Assembly: GCF_037042905.1 (NCBI RefSeq)
Contig: NC_087245.1
Coordinates: 18,602,001 to 18,666,000 of the forward strand
DNA: 64,000 nt
Reading direction: 5' to 3'
Source of the DNA: Lytechinus pictus
Taxonomy: Eukaryota
The notes below the pieces were generated by a model. The model was not told the origin of the DNA. It saw nothing but the letters and a program-made list of their open reading frames with translations, and did not search any database. Position 1 is the stretch's first letter, and the number at the start of each line of letters is the position of its first letter. Below, one piece after another: positions 17,075 through 53,606 of the stretch. Both the position numbers and the translations under genes were made by a program.

Positions 17075-17440
17075 GGGGCGTATAAATGGACCAGTGGATT
17101 AGTCTTCTGACTATGAAACAGAGGGTAGTAGGTTCGAATCCCAGCCATGGCGTAATTTCCTTCAACAAGAAATTTATCCACACTGTGCTGCACTCAACCC
17201 GGGTGAGGTGAATGGGTACCCGGTATAGGAAGAAATTAATTAAATGCCTTCCTTTGGGGGCCCAGGCAGCCCAGCTAAAGCCGGGGCAATAGCAGGGCCC
17301 GCTGGCAGAACAGTTTTCAGAACTGAAGTGGCTTCCCTTGGTAGATAATACCAATATTATCATTATTATTATAGTAGTAGTAGTAGTAGTAGTAGTATAT
17401 TGTAGTAGTAGTATAGTATTATCATTACTATTATTATTGT
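17075..17440 (+). mobile_element. tRNA-derived SINE
   Basis: tRNA-like head with B-box GGTTCGAATCC (17131-17141), SINE-like body, and an (ATT/AGT)n tail. Confidence 0.7.
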
Positions 17441-22329: not shown

Positions 22330-22620
22330 ATTATTATTATTATTTTGTTTGGCGTCACCTGTGCCTGGGAGGCGAAAAGCGAACTGAATCACTATGACCC
22401 GCAGGTCTCTCCTCCCGATATAACTGATTGGGGGGAATGCAGGTGGACCACTACACCGGGGTTTCCCCCTACTCTTATACGAATAGTGCAGTGGGTTCTT
22501 TACGTGCAAATGTGGTGACTCTCCTCTACACGGGGCCTCCATTTAACGTCCTATCCGAGGGACGGAGTGTTTTCCATTGTAACATAGCCTGCATCTATGA
22601 AACATGGGAGAGACGTTTAC
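22330..22620 (-). mobile_element. 5'-truncated SINE with a Meta-domain-like centre
   Basis: Minus strand reads CCGTCCCTCGGATAGGACGTTAAATGGAGGCCCCGTGT...GCACGTAAAGAACCC, resembling the recalled MetaSINE central domain; (AAT)n tail. Confidence 0.55.
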
Positions 22621-24223
22621 ACACAAATGAAATAAAATAAATAAATAAATAACAATTACAGATATATATACAAACTTCTATATAATGTCACTTTCCGTCC
22701 TCCTCTCTTCATTCTTTTTTTTTCCTTCTCTGTATTGTGTTCTTTTTTCCTTTTTGTATTTTTTTCTTTTTTTCGTTGACAATTAGGAGAAAGTTGTATT
22801 TGTGCTAGTCTTGTATGAAGACCTACTTGTTGATCAAAGTTTCTGTCTACAGTGCATGCATGCGCCATATCATATAGGCCAAAGTATCTTCTTCTTGGTG
22901 ATACTCCTCAACGTTCCTATTACAGGAACCACCCGAGGAGGATGGTATCATAGACAGTAACATTCGCGATTTCGAATAATTTTTTTCTCTGACTTTTTTT
23001 TTAGTTCTTGATGCCGCGCACGAAGCCTGAGAGTAGACTAATTCTAGTTGTTAAAAGACCATGCTTGTTTGACGAAATTCCGCTCTCTCTCGTGAAATCG
23101 CCGCTTTGGTTAAATTTTGCAGAGAGGATCTAAATCCAATAGCTTCAGGCAAACAAAGTTTGTAGAGGGTCAAGGTGAGTGTTATATTCGAAGATTCAGA
23201 TAGGGGTCTACGCGTATTTTGAAGAATTTATACTGATTTTGCGATGACCATGCGACGACCGGCATCGATGCAGAGCCAGACGTCCCAGTCCCAGAGCAGG
23301 TAGACCAAAGGCAAAAGCTTCGGTCTATGTTATATTGGTTGTTCCGCTGAACTCCGCTGGAGCTGGAGCTGGCTCCACTCACCAATTAATACCGAGACCG
23401 AAGTTCTAACTCGATCTGTACAGGGATTCAATGGCCATAATTGTACTTGATGCCCCCAGGGGACATAAACTTTTTTACCTTTTGGTACTCCTTGATTTCC
23501 CGATGATTCTTCGTTACCGAAATGTAAACTACTAAATATTTCTTTTCTCTCACGATAATTTATAAAAAAAATTAGAAAGTAGTTCCGGTTTGCGCTAGCG
23601 CACCCCATATGAGATGCGAGTACAAATGCGCAAACAGGTGCATCTAGATGAGCGCGCATCCTTGCCTCCTCATCTATCCTCTTATATATTTATTACTTGC
23701 ACTTGATGCCCCCAAAATTGATGAAAGCAGTGATCGGGCAAGTAATCCTAGAAGTAGAACTAGAAGTGTTGACAAAATTAACCTTGATAATGATAGCTAG
23801 TTTGTTGTACTTGATGCCCCCAAATTTTCCAGTTATTCAGCACGTTTATTCAGAAGTTTACATTCCACTAACCCCATTTCCCCTCTTTCATGTCTTTCTA
23901 TTTTCTAGCCGCGCAAGCCTTCATAACATCGTCGAATCAAATTAACCTTGTTGAATGTTGGCTAAATTAACCTTGATAGCTAGAGAATAAACTCTCTATT
24001 AATTATTACTTGTACTTGATGCCCCCAAAAATTTCAACAAAATTAACCTTGTAGCCATAATTAACCTTGTTGGCAAAATTAACCTTGATAGCTAATGTAA
24101 CCTTGAGAGCTATAGCTCGTCTCTCTTTAGTCAGCTGGCATAGCCAGGCGGCTTCTAGAGAGTAAAAATCATTTACTAACGTAAGGTTACTCTCATACGA
24201 AGCCAGGCCTTCTATCTCATAGA

Positions 24224-31626: not shown

Positions 31627-34600
31627 CAGTGCGTAACAAAAAAAAGTTTACACTTTGAAAAAGCCCTGGGAATTAAAAAATATACAACATGTAGGTAATT
31701 TTTTCACATAATATCGGTTTGGGTCTCATCTATCTAATGAAAGTAAAAGTTTTGACAGAATGTTACATTTGAGTGAGCACTGTCCATTTTTGTAAAGCTC
31801 GCAGAAATCTGTTTGCGCAGAAATGCTTGTTTTCACGCTGTGTCAAGGGGAAAGGGCGAAATCAAACTTACCCTGCGAAACATTTTTCATACATTTCCCT
31901 TGCACTTTTAGTCAATTGAAATAAAACGGATGCATTCAAACATTTTGTAACAATTTTGCCGCCCAAATTTTAATTTCAACACTTAGTAAGCACAACTTTT
32001 ACCCTTTTTGTGCTAGCTGGATCTGAGGACATAACTGAATCTGAACAAAAGTTAATATCAGACATCTCCAGCATTTTTTTACTAAGTCTTTATCATTTAA
32101 AGTAGGTTTACATTTCATTTTTCATTTAATACTTGTTTCTCCACACTTTTTCCAAGCTTGACAATGATTAACAAAATGAAAATCAAGCCTAAGCCATTTC
32201 ATGTAAATCACAGCTCAGTGTAAAGCAAATATCGTCACAATGGCCTCGAAGTGTGGGGGACTGGGGTGGGGCACAATGCACTCTTTGAAGAGTTTTGGAC
32301 AAGGAAACAAGTTAAAAAAGGTTAAAGATTTCTTCAAATAATTTTACTAGCTAAATTCCACGTGTTCTTCATGATTAAGTTCTACTTTTATTCGCATAAC
32401 TATTTCAAAGTTCTGCGCAAATCATTTTTCAATAACTTTTCAAAAGTAAGTGGTGCTCACTCAATCGGAAATATTTTTGGACGGTTATATCTTCATTTTG
32501 CTTAAATGGATCTTTACCTATGTTAAAATGTGGAAAAATCTTCAAGATATTTAATACAAATGGTTCTAGGACAACTACCCCCTGGACAATCACCCCCCGG
32601 ACAACTACCCCCCGGACAATTACCCCCCGAGGACAATTACCCCCCGAGGACAATTACCCCCCGGACAATTACCCCCCGGACAATTACCCCCCGAGGACAA
32701 CTACCCCCCGAGGACAATTACCCCCCGGACAATTACCCCCCGGACAATTACCCCCCGGACAATTACCCCCCGGACAACTACCCCCCGGACAACTACCCCC
32801 CGAGGACAATTACCCCCCGGACAACTACCCCCCGGACAACTACCCCCCGGACAATTACCCCCCGGACAACTACCCCCCGGAAAATTACCCCCCGGACATT
32901 TACCCCCCGGAAAATTACCCCCTGGACAACTACCCCCCGGACAATTACCTTCAGAAAATCCCCCCTTCTCTCCAGCATCAATGTTAGAATAAGGCGGGAC
33001 CCATTGTAAGTTTTGGTTGGTGGCACAGGTTTCCGAAATATTTTCTACTTTATCTTACTTTAATAACTTTTTCTTTCTCTTTTATATTGCTCTTTCTCCT
33101 GTTTTCTCACTTTCTTCTTTTTTCCTTTTTTGTTTTTGTTTAGCGGCGCCTTCTGCATCATGAAAAATGGGGGGGGGGGGGGGCTTGCACCCGAAACCTC
33201 CCGTTTGGCTATGCATATATACATCAGAAAATTTGTAAACTGGCCCTCATTCTAAGTTTTCATAGAACAATTGAACACGATTAGTCATAATAATCACATA
33301 TGCTGAATATCCCTGATTCCAACTGATCTGATTTTTTTAAATATTTATTTTGGGTTTAATTTCAGGTAAGAAATCAGGCAAATAGATAAAACGTAAAAAA
33401 AACACCTTAATAGGTAGAAAAATTGAAAGTCGATAACGCAACTATGAACACTAACACTGTCAAGTAGACCTATAAATCTGTTTTTTTAACAGTTCAACTA
33501 ACAAGAAGCTAAGAATTATGAAACAATTGGTGCACATTCCAGATTAAGATGTGGCTTCATAACTTAATACAGTTAGCTAAAAAACTTTATGCAAAGATAA
33601 TACACACAAGAACACCTTGTAAATTACAAGGTGTGTTTGTGTGTATTATTCTTGGGTGAAAGCAATTAAACATTAAAGAAGGAAATTAAGTACCAAATTT
33701 ACTAAATTGTAAACAATATGACATAATCAAATACAGTGTTTTTTCTATACAAATTGGCAATCATGATAGTATACAATTCGTTTAAGGTGCATTTTAAGGA
33801 CGGTTTGTAAGAATTTATAAAGAAGTAGGCCTATGCAAATCAAATAATGCGACCGAGCACCGTGAGCTGAAAATATTAATATTTAGACCATAAAACGGAC
33901 ATTTTACAGAGCACTTGAAAAATCAATTTGTAAATTAAAAAATAATGAAAGCTCGATATCCGAGATGAAATATGTTTTGTATATTGACTTCGAAACTTGA
34001 TATTTTAAGCTCCATATCAGCCTATATTGAGCATGATATTAATCTCATCGAAAAAGCAATGCGAGCGCGAAGCGCGAGCGGAAATACTTGATATTCCGGT
34101 ATGAAAATGGTGAATTTGAGCACTATCTAAAGCATTGTGTATGGAAATTGTGAAGTGGATGTGGAAAGCACTTAATAAATGATGCGAGTGTGAAGCGCGA
34201 GCTGATGTCTTCATTATTATTTTGACCTAGGACCTGGACATTCTAGGTCTAAGGACATTTTGTCATCATATGAAAATGATGACAACTTTCTTATTCCTCT
34301 TCCTGAGCGCGATATGAAACATATGAAACTGTGATATTGTCGATATTCTTTTCTGAAAAGGGACAATTTAGTCATTAAGAATTCATGAAAATTTTATTAT
34401 CATATTTATTAATGTAATAAGCCTAAATGAGTGAGTAAAATGTGTTGACACTGAGGCCTGAAAACTGGATATTTTAAGCACTTTTGTAATCATGAATAGG
34501 ATATGTGAGTTGATGTATTTTTAACAAAAATGCGAGCGCAAATCGTAAGACGAAATTTTTGGTAAACTGTCATAAAAGGGGGGTTTTAAGTAGTTTGTTA

Positions 34601-35787
34601 TATAATTTGGCAAATCAAATAATGCGAGCGCATAGTGCAAGCTGCAAGTTATATTCACACCATAAAACGGACATTTAACAGAGCACTTAAAAATCAGTTT
34701 GTAAATCAAACAAAATTATGAATAATGTCCGAGCTGAAATATGCTTTGTAAAATCGACTTCAAAACTTGACATTTTAAGCTACATATCAGCCTATTTAGC
34801 AAGATGTGTATCTCATCGAACAGGCTATGCGAGCCCGAAGCGCGAGCGAAAAAATTAATATAGTGACATGAAATATATTTTTTTATCATTTTCCAAGTCA
34901 TCCCCTGACCTTTTTTTTTTCACTCGTCTCCCTCTTATTTTAACTCTTATTTTTCCTCCTTTCTTTCCCCTTCTTTTTCTTTTTTCTTTCTTTCTCCCTT
35001 TTTTTCTTCATTTGTTTTGCTCTGCCGATAGGGGGGGGGGGGCGGGCCCCTCGCCCCCCTGGATCCGCCTATGGATGGAGCTCAATTTTACAGCTTTCCT
35101 ACGGCGTACGTTTGATTCCAAGATACTCGAGAATGCCTTGAGTACTTCTTACGTCAAACGTACGGCCGACGTATGACTCTGTGCACTCCCTTTGTCTATA
35201 TAGGGGGTAATTGTCCGGGGGGTAGTTGTCCGGGGGGTAATTGTCCGGGGGTAGTTGTCCGGGGGGTAATTGTCCGGGGGGTAGTTGTCCGGGGGGGTAA
35301 TTGTCCGGGGGGTAGTTGTCCGGGGGGTAGTTGTCCGGGGGGTAATTGTCCGGGGGGTAGTTGTCCGGGGGGTAATTGTCCAGGGGGTAGTTGTCCGGGG
35401 GGTAGTTGTCCGGGGGGTAATTGTCCGGGGGGTAGTTGTCCAGGGGGTAGTTGTCCGGGGGGTAATTGTCCGGGGGGTAGTTGTCCGGGGGGTAATTGTC
35501 CGCGGGGTAATTGTCCGGGGGGTATTTGTCCGGGGGGGTAATTGTCCGGGGGGTAGTTGTCCGGGGGGTAATTGTCCGGGGGGTAATTGTCCTCGGGGGG
35601 TAGTTGTCCTCAGGGGGTAATTGTCCGGGGGGTAATTGTCCGGGGGGTAATTGTCCTAGGGGGGTAATTGTCCGGGGGGTAGTTGTCCGGGGGGTGATTG
35701 TCCAGGGGGTAGTTGTCCTGATACCAATACAAATGTATAATATTACAGGATTTTTTCTAAGTGTAAACTTTTTTTTGATACGCACTG
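31627..35787. mobile_element. Tc1/mariner-type MITE interrupted by a foldback element
   Basis: TIR CAGTGCGTA.CAAAAAAAAGTTTACAC; TA TSD. Confidence 0.8.
32562..35725. mobile_element. Foldback/MULE-like element with 15-bp tandem-repeat inverted arms
   Basis: (CCCCCCGGACAAYTA)n at 32570-32950 and its reverse complement at 35203-35719; GG...CC termini; 9-bp TSD AATACAAAT (32553-32561, 35726-35734). Confidence 0.85.
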
Positions 35788-36651
35788 TATAGAGGCGGGT
35801 CCAGGATATACCTGCATGAAGGGGGGGAGGAGTAAAAAAACGGACCCCCCTCAAGTTTCTGTTGATAACCCTTTTGTTCCCTTGTCAATTTTTTTCCCTA
35901 GGTCCCCCCTAGATGGGGCCCCCCCTAAAATTTTGGTTGATAACCCTATTTTTTTTTCTGGTGGACCCCCCAAAAATATTTTTTTTTGGCTTGCCGCCAC
36001 CAATAAAAGGGGGAGGGTACACATGTAAAAGCAGCATGTTACATTACATTTTTTTATATAATGGCTCTCTAGGGGGTGGGTAGGATGTGCCCCTCCCCTT
36101 TGGATCCTCCACTGGTCATGTACAGGGCAAGAATTTAAATTGGGGGTGCACGGGGGGTGTAAATAACCTCTGGTGTCAAGGGGGCACAGTCAGCCCGTGC
36201 CCCCCCCCCTTGAGAGGCACAATTAAAATTTAAATGCTGTGAAAACTTAAGTGTGCCCCCCCCCCCTTTGAAAGTGAGGACTTTTTTGTTTGCTTGTCAG
36301 ATTTTTTCGTAGAAGAAATGTACTTCATTTTTGGTTGGAAACATTTTTTTGTTGTTGCTTTTTCCTCAGGAAAATGTGCTCCCCCCACCCTTAGAAAATC
36401 CTAGATCCACCAGAGTGTCAATAATGTTTGAAAAGAGATATACCCCTTCCATCCCTGATGTAACCCATTTGCTGTCAAAAAATATATACTGTATTTGAAG
36501 AGGGGGCTGACATACCCCCTTTGTCTCCTTTGGCTTCACGCCTGATGATTGCACATGTACAATGTATGACTTGTCATTGTATACATGCACAAACACACAC
36601 ACGACACCACGTGTAGATAACGTGTTTTACCGGCGCCGTGACCACTGCACT

Positions 36652-41067: not shown

Positions 41068-42724
41068 AATTAGGTGGTCTGTCTATGACAGATCACCTCT
41101 TAATTTCGTCAGAATTTTCTTTATTATTTCTTTATTTATTTTTAGCACCTATGTTTGTCGCCAACTTTTCTCCGAATTGGCTGAATCAATTTGGCTGATT
41201 TTTCTGTCATATATAGAGTCTATCATAGAGACGGCATACTAAGCTTTTCAAGGTCATCTGATTACGATGACGTCATCTACGCGCCATTTTGTAAAATTCT
41301 CAATTTGATCATATCAACATAACGGATCATCAATAATCAACCATATTTACATCACATAAACTTTAGGTTAAAGTTCATCTGTCAATGTCATCAAAGGTCA
41401 TGTAAAGGTCATGACGCGCGCGTCAAAGCAAAAAAAATTCTCCAAATGGCCTATAAAATTTTTTGGGTACGTTTCAAGTCATTTTAAGCATTTCAAAAAT
41501 TTGCGCGCGTTTCCGCACGTAACGCCATAACACAACGCAGAAACACAGTTTTTTATATATCATTGCATTGATGATATAATTCTGAGCAATTTGATACCTT
41601 GATCAACCTTCTACGACCATTAATAACGAAATTAACACCCGTTAAAGTTTGCAGCACGTGTGTGCGCGAGCTCTCACTACAGGCCATATATGGGCAAAAA
41701 CATGTCTATTGAAAATTCACTGTAGCTCTTTAAATAGTCCGTTGACCCCAATTTTTTTTTTTCTTATATCGATAGAGTATGAGTTGTAGATTTGATTTCA
41801 TGTCACCATTGTCCCTCAATTTGATCATGACGTCATCAAAATTGCGCCTAAACTGAAAATTTCATTTTTTTCAAAAATGACGTCATCAAATTTATGCAAA
41901 TTTGATCGTAACTCCGTATATATTGATTGTTTTTCGCCCATATTTGATATATAGTAGTTTAGAATGTACTCTTTCTCCTCAGTTATCATAAATTTTCATT
42001 TTGAAAAACGCATCATGGCGTAAAACAGCGATGAAAAGAGGCATGTCATTTTTCCTCATTTTGCGTGTAATCTCTATGGGACATGACTTTTTCTCAAAAC
42101 TAGATTCTACATTCCTCTATTTCGTGAGCTATATCTCCATTTTTTCTTGATAGTTATCCCTGAGCTTTTAGTATGTTGTAGCTGAGATTCTTAGCTTTCG
42201 GAAGTGTTCCTTCATTTCTCGATCAGATGCCGAGATCATGCCCGTTTTTCGCTTGCAAAATTGGATTTGTAATTCTCAAATTTACTTACGTGTAATGTCT
42301 ATGGGAACATATAATTCCTATGGGGAATATCCTGGCTCAATGGATAACGCACTTGACTAGCGTCCTCGGGGTGCAGGTTCGAGTCCTAGGGTGAACAAGA
42401 TGATTTTTTTTTCTTTTTTTTCTTTTTACCACCTCGTACATGATCCTTTATGACAATTAAAAGGTATAAAAGTTAAAATTTAGCAAGATAAAACAGATTA
42501 TACTTTTTTCATACTTCAATTGTCATATATTAATGAGACCTTTTTCACAGTGCTTTATCATCTCCCCTCATCTCCAGTCTTTCACAACTATTCTATCCAT
42601 AATGAACATTCCGTTGTCATCATGATGATCATATTGATCTACATGAACATGGTAATAGTGATCATGATGCCGAGAGTAAGGACAGACCACCTAATTCGTC
42701 TGCATGACGAATTAAATTCTAGTT
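41068..42724 (+). mobile_element. Helentron/HINE-like non-autonomous rolling-circle element
   Basis: 5' subTIR AATTAGGTGGTCTGTC with an adjacent inverted partner; 3' subTIR GACAGACCACCTAATT (42681-42696); hairpin AATTCGTC-tgcat-GACGAATT; CTAGT end. Confidence 0.7.
42326..42395 (+). pseudogene. Degenerate tRNA-like sequence (resembles tRNA-Arg) inside the HINE-like element
   Basis: A-box TGGCTCAATGG, B-box GGTTCGAGTCC, and a T-run at ~42404. Anticodon and acceptor stems do not pair well. Confidence 0.6.
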
Positions 42725-46434: not shown

Positions 46435-47130
46435 TTTTTGTTGTCGCTTTTCCGACAACAGCGGCAGAGGCACATGAAATTTTAACCAAAGGTTAAGTTT
46501 GTGAAATGACATAACTTAAAAATTATATAGACCTAGTACATGAAACTTGGACATAAGGTTAATCAAGTAATACTATACATCCTACCTGAGTTTCAGGTCA
46601 CATGACCAATGTCAAATGTCATTTAGGGTAAATTAACTTAATAAACTATGTTGGGGGAATCAACATCAAAATCTTAACCTAAGGTCTAAGGTTTTGTAAT
46701 GTCTTCATAACTTAGAAAGTATATGAACCTAGTGAATGAAACTTGGGACACAAGGGTAATAAAGTATTACTGAATTTCAGGTCACATGACCAAGGTCAAA
46801 GGTCATTTAGGGTTAATGAACTTTGGCCAAGTTGGGGGTATTTGTTGATTTGCCATCATAACTGAAAGTTTATGGATCTAGTTCATTAAACTTGGACATG
46901 TATCACTGAACATCCCGTACAGACATAGGGGTAATCAAGTTTCACTGGCAAGTCTTAGGTCACATGACCAAGGTCAAATGTCATTTAGGGTCAATGAACA
47001 TAGTATTATATCATTATATGAATGGTGTCTTTTGTGAATAATTATTCTATAATAGTTTTCAAAGTCAGCACTGTTGCTATATTGAATGCATAATACAGGT
47101 GTGACTGCTAGAGGCCCTCCACTTGTTTTT
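46435..47130 (+). mobile_element. HINE/DINE-like element, degenerate copy 1
   Basis: Shares the internal repeats (CATGAAACTTGG..GTCACATGACCAAGGTCAAAGGTCA) and the 3' end CCACTTGTTT with the copies at 49533, 51450 and 53057. Confidence 0.7.
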
Positions 47131-47354
47131 TCAAATTAGATGATTTGAACCTGTGTGCGAAGCCATATCATATCTTTAGATTGCAATCCACATTAGTTTT
47201 ACATCCAGTATGGTGAAAGATGATTTGTTGAAAGCAAACTTGTTATCAGATTCATTGATTTATTGAAAGAGAGTCCATACTGGTGACCAGTGAAATAAAT
47301 AACAAATTTAGTTTGCTTTGGTTTGTGAAATTGTCTTGACTTTTTTTCACATAG

Positions 47355-47456
47355 ATAAGTGAAGACAAATTGAAGATCAGAAGAGCAGTGAACAAGCCAC
47401 TACCTGAAGAAACCGCTGCATACTGGCAGTCTATGAGAGCAAGGAGTGTCTATTGC
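47355..47456 (+). CDS. SSB: La coding exon 4
   Basis: ISEDKLKIRRAVNKPLPEETAAYWQSMRARSVYC|gtatgt. Confidence 0.95.
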
Positions 47457-47679
47457 GTATGTCAATTCACATTCTAACAAGATTATCAGTGTAGTTATTC
47501 TATTTTATATTCTCCAAAGGATATCAGATCTTTTCATGATTGAAGTGCTATAAAAATATTATTAACACACAATCTTCAGCATCTTTTCCCATATCTGCAG
47601 TAATCCTGTATCTAAACCTTGTGATCCTTCCTTCAGTTCTACCTAAGATTATTATGAGATGCCTGTATGATCTCATTAA

Positions 47680-48447
47680 AGGGATGGTCTGGGCTGAAAA
47701 TATTTATATTTAAATAAATAGAGTAAAATTCACAGAGCAATATGCTGAAAATTTCATGAAAATAGGATTACAAATGTGTGTATTTGAGTTTTGTCAGACG
47801 TGTATCAATCAGATATGATTATTTACGTCTGGGACCGACCTTTAACGTCACCATCCGAAAGACGTGACCAGGGCTCGAACCTCGAACCTCTGCATCAATT
47901 TGTAACTTCCCCACAGCTTGGATTACAGGCGCACGCCACAACGCCCAATGATGAAGTTATATAATTTTAGATTGTATCAATATTTTTTTAAAACAGTTAT
48001 ATGCACTTCGTCATGAATATTCATTAGGTGGGCTGATGATGTCACATCCCCACTTTTCCTTATAACATAAGATCATAAATGTTTCATTTTTGTTGAATAC
48101 ATGTATAAATGATGTGTCTCCATTATGATGAAATAAGTTGTGGCAATAAATAACTAATGCATTTAATCAGTTGTCAATCCAATTTTTTTAGTTCTTGGTA
48201 GAAATTTTTTGAATAAACCTAATTTCATATAATAAAATCCAAAAAAACAAGTGGGGATATGACATCATCAGCCCACCTAATGAATATTCATAAGACATGC
48301 CTAGAACTGTTTCACTGGAATAATGCAAATCTTTAAAATTCAATAACTTCGTTATTTCTGATCAGATTTTGATCAAATTTTCAGCATTTTGCTTTGTGAA
48401 TTGTACTCTTTATTGAGATATATATATCTCCAGCCTGGACCATCCCT
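47680..48447. mobile_element. Kolobok-like MITE
   Basis: TTAA-associated ends AGGGATGGTC..GGCTG / CAGCC..GACCATCCCT; internal inverted repeats. Confidence 0.7.
47776..47946 (-). mobile_element. Candidate SINE with a 7SL (Alu-domain)-like head
   Basis: Minus strand begins GGGCGTTGTGGCGTGCGCCTGTAATCCAAGCT, followed by B-box GGTTCGAGCCC, a Meta-domain-like segment and a (CA)-type tail. It interrupts the host MITE. Confidence 0.7.
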
Positions 48448-48781
48448 TAAATACACTGTTCAGCAGCATTCATCCATGAGCATGATTTGACCAGTGTTTC
48501 CTTTACTGAATCCAATTCCGGATCTAAGTCACACTTGAAGTCCAACATCTCTAGAATTCTCCCATCCTCTTCCCTGGTAGATGCCTATGGAAAGCCAGGA
48601 GAAAGTGCATAGTGAATACTGTAATACCCTTTTGCTACTTACTCAAATTATACAGTCCAACTACTTTTTGTGCTTGTGGGAAGGAATATGTTGTTGGAAA
48701 GGGTTAGTTGTGTGAGCTGTCTGCATGAAAGCAAAATTTCTAATAATTTTAATGATCTTATATGATACTTTGACTTTACAG

Positions 48782-48889: not shown

Positions 48890-49532
48890 GTCAGTATCTC
48901 TCAATGACAAATGGCTTCAAGTGATTTGGTAAAGCATCAGCTCCATGACCCTACATGCTATAAACATATATATCCATTACCGATGTACAGTATATGGTAT
49001 TATAAAAAAAAGAAGCAATGAAAATTCAAAGTCAAAGGAATCATAATGTGCTTCGAATGGTGTAAAAATGAGAATATCACCGAGATTCCAGATGAATTTC
49101 CCTCATAGCATGCAATATGTGTACCAAAGAACCATTTCGTGAATGACACTATTCACTCGTAGATACCATGATGCCATCATTAATTTCTAATCCTTCATAT
49201 TCCTGGTTCTTTATCTGGCCAAATAAACATAGAACTGTAGTTATATGCTACAAACACAAGCATTTGATGAATTAACCATCAAAGCATTCAAAAAGTACCT
49301 CAAGGGGCAGTCACACGTTGCTGAATTAGATCGTGGCTGTTTGGCAATACACTTTGCTCTGCCAAAGATCATGATGATTCCATATTTTGACTCTGCTCAT
49401 CTGACCATCCTTAGCACATGAAGAATTCTCATTTGCTGGAATTTGACAAGCATATATTCTTTGATGGCTGAAGGTATGGCCACATGAACAACCAAGTAGC
49501 CCCATTGAAATCAGTGTAAAATTGTCAGTTAA

Positions 49533-50486
49533 TTTTTGTCTCACCTGCATAGCAGAGTGAGACTATAGGCGCCGCTTTTCCGACGGCGGCGGCGGCGTCA
49601 ACACCAAATCTTAACCTGAGGTTAAGTTTTTGAAATGACAGCATAACTTAGAAAGTATATGGACCTAGTTCATGAAACTTGGCCATAAGGTTAATCAAGT
49701 ATTACTGAACATCCTGCCTGAGTTTCATGTCACATGACCAAGGTCAAAGGTCATTTAGGGTCAATGAACTTAGACCATGTTGGGGGAATCAACATCAAAA
49801 TCTTAACCTAAGGTTAAGTTTTTGAAATGTCATCATAACTTAGAAAATATATGGACCTAGTTCATGAAACTTATACATAAGGTTAATCAAGTATCACTGA
49901 ACATCCTGCATGAGTTTCACGTCACATGACCAAGGTCAAAGGTCATTTAGGGTCAATGAACTTTGGCCGAATTGGGGGTATCTGTTGAATTACCATCATA
50001 ACTTTGAAAGTTTATGGATCTGATTCATGAAACTTGGACATAATAGTAATCAAGTATTACTGAACATCCTGTGCAAGTTTCAGGTCACATGATCAAGGTC
50101 AAAGGTCATTTAGGGTCAATGAACTTTGGCCAAATTGGGGTATTTGTTGAATTACAGCCATAAATTTGAAAGTGTGTTGGTCTAGTTCATAAAACTTGGA
50201 CATAAGAGTAATCAAGTATCACTGAACATCCTGTGCGAGTTTCAGGTCACATGATCAAGGTCAAAGGTCATGTAAGGTCAAAGAACTTTGGCCACGTTGG
50301 GGGTATTTGTTGAATTGCCATCATATCTCTATAAGTGTATTGGTCTAGTTCATAAAACGTGGAAATACGAGTAACCAAGTATCACTGAACATCTTGTGCG
50401 AGTTATAGTAGTTTTCAAAATCAGCACCGCTGCTATATTGAATCGCGTGATGCAGGTGAGACGGCCAGAGGCATTCCACTTGTTTT
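49533..50486 (+). mobile_element. HINE/DINE-like element, full copy 2
   Basis: T-run flanks; subTIRs GTCTCACCTGCAT / ATGCAGGTGAGAC; (GGC)n; ~150-190-bp internal repeats. Confidence 0.8.
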
Positions 50487-51359: not shown

Positions 51360-51449
51360 GTGAGTGACTATCACTAAACATATATTAAAATAGTAATATT
51401 AAAATAAAAATCAAGAGACTTACTATATGTCCTTGCTGGCATGTTTACA

Positions 51450-52293
51450 TTTTTGTCTCGCCTGCATAGCAGAGCGAGACTATAGGCGCCGCTTTTCCGA
51501 CGGCGGCAGCGGCGTCAACATCAAATCTTAACCTAAGGTTAAGTTTTTGAAATGACATAATAACTTAGAAAGTATATGGACTTAGTTCATGAAACTTGGA
51601 CATAAAGTTAATCAAGTATTACTGAACATCCTGCCTGAGTTTCAGGTCACATGACTAAGGTCAAAGGTCATTTAGGGTCAATGAACTTAGACCATGTTGG
51701 GAGAATTTATTTTCAAAATCTTAACCGAAGGTTTAGTTTTTGAAATGACATCACAACTTAAAAAGTATATGGACCTAGTTCATGAAACTTGGGCATAAGG
51801 TTAATCAAGTATTAGTGAACATCCTGCACCATTTTCAGGTCACAGGTCATTTAGGGTCAATGAACTTTGGTCAAGTTGGGGGTATTTTTTGAATTACTAT
51901 CATAACTTTGAAAATTTATGGATCTAGTTCATGAAACTTAGACATAAGGTTAATCAAGTATTAGTAAACATCCTTCCTGAGTTTCAGGTCACATGACCAA
52001 GGTCAAAGGTCATTTAGGGTCAATGAACTTTGGCCAAGTTGGGGGTATTTGTTGAATTACCTTCATAACTTTGAAAATTTATGGATCTAGTTCATGAAAC
52101 GTGGACATGGGTGTAGTTGACAAGTCTTAAGTCACCGTTCAAATGTCATCTATGGTCAATGAACGTGGTATTATGTCATTATATGAATGGTGTTTTTGTG
52201 AATGATTATTTTATAGTAGTTTTCAAAGTTAGCACTGCTGCTATATTAAATCGCGTAATGCAGGCGAGACTGCCAGAGGCTTTCCACTTGTTT
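51450..52293 (+). mobile_element. HINE/DINE-like element, full copy 3
   Basis: subTIRs GTCTCGCCTGCAT / ATGCAGGCGAGAC; same internal repeats as copy 2. Confidence 0.8.
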
Positions 52294-52349: not shown

Positions 52350-53606
52350 CAGAGCTGCCAAATAGTACGATTTTGTCGTATTCCGTACGATTTTTCACTT
52401 AAAATACGACACTAGGATTCTTACAAATAAAATACGATTTTTTGAAAATATAGCTATGGTAAGGCTCGACATAACAGAAATCCACCTCGGGCAATCATTA
52501 TTGAAAAATGTTAAGTTTTGGTGGCCCGAATCGGGCAACCAATAATTTTCAAAGTAGCGCAATTTTTCTCCCGATTTTGCACCATTTATCAACTTTATAC
52601 AGTTCAAATTGCAACCAATTCGTCATGCGCCCTTTTTGTTGATCTACACACAAATACACACACACATGACAGTACATAGGCTTACCGCTCTAGCTAGCAT
52701 ACAGTAGCTATTATCCAGCCGGCCGGCTGGCGTGCGTGAGCTTTGCATGAAACCACTGCAGCTACATGTAGCTATCTGTGCGCTATCAGCCTATTCAGAC
52801 TCGGGGAGCTACGATACGAAATGTTGCTGCTAAGATATCTTCCACAGAACTTTGAAAATCTATTTGCAAGCATTAAAAACAGGAATTATGACCTCTCTTT
52901 TGACTCAAAAAGACCGATTTCCAAATGTATTAATACACATAAAAACACATAGGTGAGTACATCACAGTCCCATATGTGCATTTGTATGTATGTTGATACT
53001 TGGTTTCTTTCGAAGCTGTGTCTTTTCTAGCAAAAAATAAGCAGACAGTTTTTTCCTTTTTGTCTCACCTGCATAGCAGAGTGAGACTATAGGCGCCGCT
53101 TTTCCGACGGCGGCGGCGGCGGCGGCGTCAACACCAAATCTTAACCTGAGGTTAAGTTTTTGAAATGACAGCATAACTTAGAAAGTATATGGACCTAGTT
53201 CATGAAACTTGGCCATAAGGTTAATCAAGTATTACTGAACATCCTGCCTGAGTTTCATGTCACATGACTAAGGTCAAAGGTCATTTAGGGTCAATGAACT
53301 TAGACCATGTTGGGGGAATCAACATCAAAATCTTAACCTAAGGTTAAGTTTTTGAAATGTCATCATAACTTAGAAAATATATGGACCTAGTTCATGAAAC
53401 TTATACATAAGGTTAATCAAGTATCACTGAACATCCTGCATGAGTTTCACGTCACATGACCAAGGTCAAATTACAGTGAGCACAACAAAATAATGAGATG
53501 TATAGTAGGAAAGTACACGACGGGTATGAATAGGATTTTTTGTCTAAAAATAGGATTTTTTGGGTGAAATAATAGGTTTTTTTGTCAAGTGTGGTTGGCA
53601 GCTCTG
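52350..53606. mobile_element. hAT-like composite element with a 6-bp TSD carrying fragments of two other elements
   Basis: Perfect TIR CAGAGCTGCCAA; TSD GCTCAG (52344-52349, 53607-53612). The interior holds an inverted copy of ~25380-26070 and a truncated HINE (53057-53470). Confidence 0.8.

What the first reader, a model, noticed from the sequence alone, without database searches (positions are those of the whole stretch)
47776..47946. Candidate 7SL-derived chimeric SINE in an invertebrate-like genome
Seen: the minus strand starts GGGCGTTGTGGCGTGCGCCTGTAATCCAAGCT (47946-47915). It matches the recalled Alu/7SL 5' domain GGGCGTGGTGGCGCGCGCCTGTAATCCCAGCT at 29 of 32 positions. A B-box GGTTCGAGCCC follows (47881-47871), then GTCTTTCGGATGGTGACGTTAAAGGTCGGTCCC, which resembles the SINE central segment at 22532-22563, then a short CA tail. 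It is inserted into a MITE, so it has moved. Knowledge: 7SL-derived SINEs are known to me mainly from primates, rodents, tree shrews and hagfish. Inference: an independent origin by fusion of a 7SL head to a resident SINE.
Basis: partly seen in the sequence, partly recalled or inferred. Interest (0 to 1): 0.8.

Follow-up and report, generated by a model that had tools for sequence, protein, structure and literature searches.

The report
Echinoderm SINE with minimal 7SL head
This is one inserted copy of a many-copy short mobile element in a likely sea-urchin genome; its first ~45 bases match signal-recognition-particle (7SL) RNA, the piece that drives human Alu, and were likely grafted onto an ordinary tRNA-type element, an origin that the papers I found report only from a few vertebrates.

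Summary
Observation confirmed. The minus-strand head matches the Rfam metazoan SRP 5' domain (E 6e-5; 28 of 31 positions) and keeps both hairpins and the loop-loop pairing. The match ends near 47905, so no 3' 7SL piece is present. A tRNA-type T-arm/B box follows, then about 40 nt of the Deu domain, a 13-bp hairpin and a CA tail. In public runs of two organisms, everything 3' of the head is a very high-copy repeat with a sharp 3' end. Three marine metagenome elements share body and tail (78-86 of 91 nt) under non-7SL heads, which supports a head swap. The copy interrupts a MITE, and that MITE is absent at the same site in the sister organism. Not tested here: the head across the family (one further contig seen carrying part of it), the host's own 7SL, the LINE partner, Dfam/Repbase. 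This scan has already noted what reads as the same family at 16 other places in this genome (unchecked AI notes, about 1,000-1,500 copies). Eight literature searches found no invertebrate 7SL SINE. Verdict: new variant of SINE1, interest 0.7.

The parts
47906..47946 (-). 7SL (SRP RNA) 5' Alu-domain head: helix 3 (47946-47927), conserved single-stranded turn (47926-47923), helix 4 (47922-47908)
   Evidence: Rfam Metazoa_SRP alignment; helix 3 has 6 of 8 standard pairs, helix 4 has 3 of 3, loop-loop register 47938-47935 with 47917-47914 has 4 of 4 pairs (best of 6 registers tried)
47936..47945 (-). A-box position of the 7SL internal promoter (inferred by position)
   Evidence: Aligns to the model positions that Kojima 2020 gives for box A (human 7SL nt 6-15); function untested
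47947..47949 (-). Ambiguous 3 nt: either the 5' copy of a 3-4 bp target-site duplication, or the element's own first three bases
   Evidence: Empty-site reconstruction needs a 3-nt excess if the element starts at 47946, none if it starts at 47949; Rfam pairs these three bases with 47907-47905
47870..47904 (-). 3' half of a tRNA-type SINE head with T-arm-like B box (47881-47871) and a 7-nt tandem duplication (47888-47875)
   Evidence: 47904-47876 aligns to the head of L003 (5 of 1000 shuffles reach the score); L002 weaker (89 of 1000); L001 none (929 of 1000). A 7-nt deletion at this place is in 2.4% (X1) and 0.9% (X4) of DNA depth, 18% in X13 and 298 of 1071 RNA reads
47831..47868 (-). First ~40 nt of the Deu (Nin) conserved SINE domain; the rest of the domain is absent
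   Evidence: By eye against the Deu-domain alignment in Kojima's supplement and BivaMD-SINE1 in Nishihara's supplement; 47862-47831 invariant in L001-L003 except one position
47795..47831 (-). 3' hairpin (7-bp plus 6-bp stems), predicted LINE-recognition signal
   Evidence: -13.0 kcal/mol, z -4.3 against 300 shuffles; 13 of 13 pairs in the window, L002 and L003, 11 of 13 in L001, no compensatory change
47776..47794 (-). A-rich spacer and (CA)n tail; family 3' end
   Evidence: 161 (X1), 141 (X4) and 39 (X13) contigs and 730 RNA reads (X22) stop matching at 47775 and run into unrelated flanks behind a CA run (agreement 0.40-0.45)
47773..47775 (-). 3' copy of the possible 3-bp target-site duplication
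47680..48447 (.). Host MITE with long inverted arms; TTAA at 47676-47679 on the left and an imperfect match on the right (Kolobok-like, label recalled)
   Evidence: Arms 79-81% identical; high-copy in runs; organism A contigs match up to 47679 and then continue with unlike sequence, i.e. no MITE at this site (X4 record 17, X1 record 1)
47355..47456 (+). Exon of a La (lupus La/SSB) protein gene; MITE and SINE lie in the following intron, the SINE antisense
   Evidence: phmmer to PDB La protein E 1.2e-5; RNA reads cover the exon; no Pfam hit for the 34-aa piece

Best explanation
This is an inserted copy of a high-copy SINE whose ~45-nt head matches the 5' Alu domain of 7SL RNA and likely replaced the 5' half of the head of a short tRNA-type Deu SINE. 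SHOWN: the modules, the high copy number of everything 3' of the head, the insertion into a MITE, and sister elements with the same body and tail under other heads. INFERRED, origin: a reverse transcriptase copying the tRNA SINE switched template to 7SL RNA near 47905, as proposed for the 5S-plus-partial-tRNA heads of vertebrate SINEs. INFERRED, life cycle: RNA polymerase III transcribes it from a hybrid internal promoter (7SL A box, tRNA-type B box 64 nt further on; no T4 terminator inside, the first lies 14 nt past this copy's end). The head would fold into the two-hairpin domain, bind SRP9/14 and dock on ribosomes. A resident LINE that recognises the 3' hairpin and CA tail would copy it into new sites with short or no target duplications.
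For: SRP model match confined to the 5' domain, with hairpins and loop-loop pairing intact. Summed contig depth over the body is 18,000-23,000 times the single-copy intron, over the segment next to the head (47888-47908) about 12,000 times, and over 47909-47912, inside the 7SL-like part, about 5,000 times; 370, 344 and 51 contigs and 416 reads run over the ends of the laid stretch, whose other end is single-copy (not copy numbers). The head-adjacent segment keeps 55-65% of the body's depth in 3 of 3 contig runs. L001-L003 share 78, 84 and 86 of 91 body-and-tail bases; their upstream DNA does not resemble the head (229, 462 and 91 of 1000 shuffles score as well) and has no SRP hit. Precedent for head swaps: Nishihara 2016, Kojima 2020. 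The 46-nt 5' domain binds SRP9/14 and supports Alu retrotransposition (Moldovan 2025).
Against: No genome was held: host 7SL gene, copy count, consensus and LINE partner are untested. The Rfam score is far below the gathering threshold and the hit vanished in the whole-window scan. Head fold z is +0.56. tRNA ancestry of the B-box segment rests on 1 of 3 sister loci at a significant level, and ARAGORN and Rfam call no tRNA in L001-L003. RNA reads show no start or end piles, and 94% of laid reads run on into unlike sequence, so there is no sign of a free polymerase III transcript (a cDNA library could miss a 171-nt RNA). The hairpin shows no covariation in 4 sequences.
Confidence: 0.8

Rival explanations
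1. A one-off or rare chimeric retrocopy: a 7SL 5' end was joined to an ordinary tRNA-headed SINE during one insertion, like U6/L1 chimeras, and the abundant family itself is tRNA-headed.
For: tRNA-type-headed relatives with the same body exist; depth falls toward the 5' end, to 23-33% of body depth in the last bin; only one clear second head-bearing contig was seen.
Against: High depth continues into 47909-47912, inside the 7SL-like helix 4 strand, and no variant at 10% or more is listed for 47864-47912 among the 40 of 49 rows shown. The last bin is an edge bin and the tool drops human-like records. A second copy has the same junction. Sixteen unchecked notes describe such elements elsewhere in this genome (leads only).
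Confidence: 0.08
2. A real 7SL-headed family, but the head serves only as a replacement A box and 5' end; SRP9/14 binding plays no part in its spread.
For: The head's fold is no more stable than shuffles; a LINE that recognises a 3' hairpin may not need ribosome targeting; tRNA-type heads carry the same body in other animals.
Against: The 7SL piece ends at about nt 45-46 counted from 47949, the length of the minimal SRP9/14-binding domain, well past the A box; hairpins and loop-loop pairing are intact.
Confidence: 0.25
3. The whole 5' 75 nt, B box included, comes from the host's own divergent 7SL, so the element is a 7SL 5' fragment fused directly to Deu with no tRNA remnant.
For: Host 7SL is unknown here; the tRNA-side alignment is significant in 1 of 3 loci only; box B of human 7SL lies at a similar distance from box A (nt 76-86).
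Against: The SRP model matches poorly after helix 4; the B-box-to-Deu segment is colinear with the heads of L002 and L003.
Confidence: 0.07
4. Already catalogued in Repbase or Dfam (for example from a sea-urchin genome) without a paper.
For: The family is abundant and would be picked up by automatic repeat finders; these databases could not be searched.
Against: Repbase's curator wrote in 2024 that SINE1 is known only from primates, rodents and hagfish (PMC10886601, passage); a 2026 paper from the SINEBase group lists only supraprimates, hagfish and Urop (PMC13023118).
Confidence: 0.12
5. Chance resemblance or human Alu contamination.
For: Low Rfam bit score; not listed in the whole-window scan.
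Against: 28 of 31 identities with conserved structure; the head is continuous with a repeat native to these animals and sits cleanly inside a MITE.
Confidence: 0.01

Closest known systems
SINE1-1_EBu (Ebu1-1), hagfish; Kojima 2020, PMC7245038 (main text parts 1-3 of 4 read; supplement searched, passages seen)
   Same: Independent 7SL-headed SINE born by chimera formation with an older tRNA SINE; non-L1 partner; microsatellite tail; low thousands of copies
   Different: Ebu1-1 keeps 96 nt of 5' 7SL plus the 3' end (S-domain deletion) and its own 7SL B box, has an RTE bipartite tail, (AAC)n and ~17-bp TSDs. This element has about 45 nt of 7SL, no 3' piece, a tRNA-type B box, a Deu fragment, a hairpin plus CA tail and at most a 3-4 bp TSD
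Alu/FLAM/B1 (Euarchontoglires) and Urop (shrew mole); Kosushkin 2026, PMC13023118 (part 1 of 5 and passages read)
   Same: Same 5' Alu domain at the front
   Different: These are built wholly of 7SL pieces around a ~183-nt deletion, end in poly(A) and use L1. None of that holds here. Tree-shrew Tu leftmost units of dual 7SL/tRNA origin are mentioned in that paper; I did not see their sequences
SA46, the engineered minimal 46-nt Alu domain; Moldovan 2025, PMC12199147 (abstract and Discussion part 1 of 2 read)
   Same: The head here is the same piece by position and length
   Different: SA46 is a laboratory construct driven by an outside promoter. The authors argue that such a truncated 7SL could not succeed naturally for lack of a B box; this element appears to have borrowed one
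DeuSINE / Nin-DC superfamily, including sea-urchin SINE2-3_SP and SINEs with 5S plus partial-tRNA heads; Nishihara 2016, PMC4824008 (parts 2-3 of 6, supplement parts 1-2); Luchetti 2016, PMC5804259 (passages)
   Same: Carries the start of the Deu domain; head replaced by another polymerase III RNA with a tRNA remnant left behind
   Different: Only about 40 nt of Deu, against 70 nt in the shortest form described there; the new head is 7SL, not 5S

Membership tests
SINE1 (7SL-headed SINE, Kojima's definition) | 5' part derived from 7SL RNA | tested here: met
   Rfam Metazoa_SRP E 6.1e-5, 28 of 31 identities, structure kept; below gathering score
SINE1 | Head closest to the host's own 7SL gene | not testable with these tools
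   No genome held; claimed in earlier scan notes, unchecked
SINE1 | Many dispersed copies with a common 3' end | tested here: met
   141-161 contigs per DNA run end at 47775 with unrelated flanks; very high summed depth
SINE1 | Uniform chimeric structure (head on most copies) | tested here: inconclusive
SINE1 | Internal polymerase III A and B boxes | tested here: met
   Sequence level only: A-box position in head, B box 47881-47871; transcription not shown
SINE1 | 3' tail shared with a partner LINE | tested here: inconclusive
   Hairpin z -4.3 and CA tail; no LINE found in window, viral or prokaryote collections
SINE1 | Target-site duplication | tested here: inconclusive
   3-4 bp duplication or blunt insertion fit equally
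Alu/B1/Urop/Ebu1-1 architecture | 5' and 3' 7SL segments joined across an S-domain deletion | tested here: not met
   Model match ends after helix 4; the 3' model strand finds only scattered identities
Alu/B1/Urop | Poly(A) tail, L1 dependence | tested here: not met
   Hairpin and (CA)n tail
DeuSINE / Nin-DC | Deu/Nin central domain (70-330 bp described) | tested here: inconclusive
   About 40 nt match the domain's start by eye; the downstream part is absent, so not filed as a member
MetaSINE | 66-bp Meta domain after a tRNA head | tested here: not met
   By eye the body matches the segment after the Meta domain in BivaMD-SINE1, not BivaMeta-SINE1
SINE2 (tRNA-headed) | Complete tRNA-like head | tested here: not met
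   No tRNA family hit at E<=1; only a T-arm-like 3' half

The most novel reading that the evidence does not exclude
The first invertebrate 7SL-derived SINE and a natural SA46 element: a fourth independent origin that keeps only the 46-nt SRP9/14-binding domain and became self-propagating by borrowing a tRNA SINE's B box. It would show that the S-domain deletion seen in every described 7SL SINE is not required, and that SRP9/14 ribosome docking helps even with a hairpin-recognising LINE, enough to overtake its tRNA-headed parent in two related species.
Probability: 0.5. Interest if true: 0.85.

Novelty: new variant of a known kind. Interest (0 to 1): 0.7.

Why it matters
7SL-derived SINEs are called exceptional: three origins are described, all vertebrate, and all keep both ends of 7SL around the same deletion (PMC13023118, PMC7245038). 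Moldovan 2025 showed that 46 nt suffice in cell assays but reasoned that so short a head could not spread in nature without a B box. This element looks like that predicted exception. It also comes with a natural control: tRNA-headed sisters with the same body and tail. That makes a long-standing question testable, namely whether the 7SL head is kept as a promoter or as an SRP9/14 ribosome-targeting device. The copies that differ between two related species would also be insertion markers.

Tried and rejected
No whole genome was held, so copy count, consensus, host 7SL and LINE searches were not possible. Whole-window Rfam scan: SRP hit not listed among 7 matches. Other copies in the window: none (blastn; nhmmer, next best E 0.35). 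The SINE at 22330-22625 as parent: rejected; it shares only the Deu start and has the longer domain and a different tail. Meta domain, my first guess from memory: rejected. Collection scans with body, head-adjacent or tail motifs: metagenomes 3 hits of 1 scan; viral contigs 1 hit in 3 scans, L004, an 18-nt chance match in unrelated sequence, dropped; prokaryote genomes 0 in 2 scans. ARAGORN 0 of 3 and Rfam no tRNA or SRP hit on L001-L003. Covariation in the tail hairpin: none in 4 sequences. Free transcript in RNA run X22: no start or end piles. Summed contig depth was not turned into a copy number: overlapping short contigs inflate it and the tool warns against it. I laid 4 of the 24 listed runs. 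Scan look-ups by sequence and by relatives returned nothing. Pfam gave nothing for the 34-aa exon.

Full report
Observation. The 171-nt element lies on the minus strand at 47946-47776. A Rfam scan of 47000-48700 gives Metazoa_SRP as the best of 5 matches (47949-47857, 27.9 bits, E 6.1e-5; gathering score 70) and lists no tRNA family. In that alignment I count 28 identities in 31 model positions plus one inserted base. A rough binomial chance for the window is about 1e-6. The whole-window scan at E<=0.5 did not list the hit; I take this to be the stricter filter, but did not test that. Scored by coordinate against the model's pairing, helix 3 has 6 of 8 standard pairs (one of the two others is the model's own G-G), helix 4 has 3 of 3, and the two loops can pair at 4 of 4 positions in one of six registers. 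This two-hairpin fold (-10.3 kcal/mol) is essentially the minimum-energy fold (-10.9), but it is no more stable than shuffles (z +0.56). After helix 4 the SRP model finds only scattered identities, so neither the S domain nor the 3' strand of the Alu domain is present.

The rest of the element. A B-box-like T-arm lies at 47881-47871, preceded by a 7-nt tandem duplication. The segment 47868-47831 matches, by eye, the first ~40 nt of the Deu domain in Kojima's supplementary alignment and the post-Meta segment of BivaMD-SINE1. It is not the Meta domain. This explains the likeness to 22532-22563 (26 of 34 columns; 0 of 1000 local and 0 of 100 window-wide shuffles; nhmmer E 0.35): that neighbour is a different Deu-type SINE with the longer domain and another tail, and not the parent. 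A 13-bp hairpin follows (47831-47795, z -4.3), then an A-rich spacer and CA repeats. There is no T4 run inside; the first lies 14 nt downstream.

It has moved. The flanks join into one continuous match with the MITE's opposite arm (166 of 210 columns identical). The join fits either a 3-4 bp target duplication with the element starting at 47946, or a blunt insertion with the element starting at 47949; Rfam pairs those three bases with 47907-47905, so I cannot choose. The MITE (47680-48447) lies in an intron after a La-protein exon (47355-47456; PDB La E 1.2e-5). Contigs of organism A, whose intron differs from the window by 5-7%, match up to 47679 and then continue with unlike sequence (139 letters in X4 record 17; X1 record 1 ends at the same place). 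So neither MITE nor SINE is at this site there. Organism B (X13) shows none of the four exon differences listed, so the window is closer to B.

It is a family. I laid 47300-47912 on 4 of 24 listed runs. Summed contig depth over the body is 18,000-23,000 times the single-copy intron in both DNA runs, about 12,000 times over 47888-47908 and about 5,000 times over the edge bin 47909-47912. These are not copy numbers. Firmer counts: 161, 141 and 39 contigs and 730 RNA reads end at 47775 and run through a CA repeat into unrelated flanks. Among the 40 of 49 variant rows shown, only two fall in the element (47782, 47863), so this copy is close to the majority sequence. Three things point to it: the head-adjacent segment keeps 55-65% of body depth in 3 of 3 contig runs; 370, 344 and 51 contigs run over the ends of the stretch; and one X1 contig continues behind 47912 with about 20 letters matching this copy's head apart from a 2-nt insertion, with a decayed version in X4 (table 5c, 12 of 16 rows shown, by eye). 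In RNA run X22 the element is far deeper than the La exon and equal on both strands, 94% of laid reads run on into other sequence, and there are no start or end piles. That fits copies embedded in host transcripts and says nothing for a free polymerase III RNA.

The parent lineage. One metagenome scan with a body motif returned 3 loci. All three share body and tail (78, 84 and 86 of 91 nt), but their upstream DNA does not resemble the head (229, 462 and 91 of 1000 shuffles score as well) and has no SRP hit. L002 and L003 have A-box- and B-box-like tRNA-type heads by eye, though ARAGORN and Rfam call no tRNA. The window's 47904-47876 aligns to the 3' half of L003's head (5 of 1000 shuffles), weakly to L002 (89 of 1000) and not to L001 (929 of 1000). 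The 7SL likeness ends and the tRNA-SINE likeness begins near 47905, which is nt 45-46 counted from 47949. The source animals of L001-L003 are unknown.

Mechanism. Shown: modules, abundance of the part 3' of the head, insertion, sister heads. Inferred: a template switch from the tRNA SINE to 7SL RNA during reverse transcription, as proposed for 5S-plus-partial-tRNA heads (Nishihara 2016) and for the hagfish SINE1 (Kojima 2020); a hybrid A/B promoter; SRP9/14 binding and ribosome docking; copying by a LINE that recognises the 3' hairpin (general rule from the SINE literature; no partner found). Moldovan 2025 showed that a 46-nt 5' domain associates with SRP9/14 and supports retrotransposition, and argued that such a short 7SL piece failed in nature for lack of a B box. 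This element appears to be that piece with a borrowed B box.

What is known. Kojima 2020 (parts 1-3 of 4 read), Kojima 2024 (passage) and Kosushkin 2026 (part 1 of 5 and passages) list 7SL SINEs only in Euarchontoglires, hagfish and shrew mole, all with 5' and 3' 7SL pieces. Eight searches listed no paper whose title or abstract start reports an invertebrate one; most hits were seen as listings only. Matetovici 2016, Kojima 2018, Luchetti 2016 and PMC11481361 were seen as passages. The library lacks most subscription papers, bioRxiv supplements were not seen, and Repbase, Dfam and SINEBase were not searchable. Taxon: I read the genome as sea urchin from the recalled look of the MITE and from earlier scan notes; no call of mine names it.

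Earlier scan notes. Sixteen distinct notes describe a 7SL-headed SINE elsewhere in this genome, most at 169-186 nt, with about 1,000-1,500 copies, 45-47 nt from the host's own 7SL and a LINE partner. I saw no sequences, so 'same family' rests on their descriptions. My junction estimate agrees; their copy number, host-7SL match and partner are untested here and are not counted as evidence.

Verdict. Real feature. It works like Alu at its front end (inferred) and meets the broad SINE1 definition as far as tested, but it is not a member of the Alu/B1/Urop/Ebu1-1 architecture. New variant of a known kind; confidence 0.8; interest 0.7.

Noticed in passing
window 47680-48447: The MITE is absent at the orthologous site in organism A (contigs stop matching right after TTAA at 47679), so MITE plus nested SINE is a lineage-specific or polymorphic insertion in a La-gene intron. 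Whether the SINE entered before or after the MITE moved here is open.
   Followed up: partly
window 47875-47888: A 7-nt tandem duplication makes two B-box-like starts. The single-unit form is 1-2% of DNA depth in organism A but 18% in X13 and 28% of RNA reads in X22: possibly a subfamily or a few highly expressed embedded copies.
   Followed up: partly
window 22330-22625 (minus): A 5'-truncated Deu/Nin-type SINE with a (TAA)n end; a different family from the finding.
   Followed up: partly
L001:330-482, L002:335-486, L003:168-372: A very short tRNA-type SINE lineage (head, ~40-nt Deu start, hairpin, CA or CAAC tail) with three different heads on a nearly invariant body; may itself be undescribed.
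   Followed up: partly
table 5c and joints: Several contigs show head-to-tail tandem copies of the element (joints going back to 47775).
   Followed up: no
   Followed up: no
window 46445-47129, 49532-50486, 51444-52293, 53051-53470: A family of ~190-nt tandem repeats present in four blocks of the same region.
   Followed up: no
window 32527-33009 and 35099-35884: Two arrays of a short GC-rich minisatellite that give long low-complexity open frames.
   Followed up: no
window 17131-17140, 39880, 42333-42376: Further B-box-like (and one A-box-like) matches that may mark other SINE heads; 42333 with 42376 has tRNA-like spacing.
   Followed up: no
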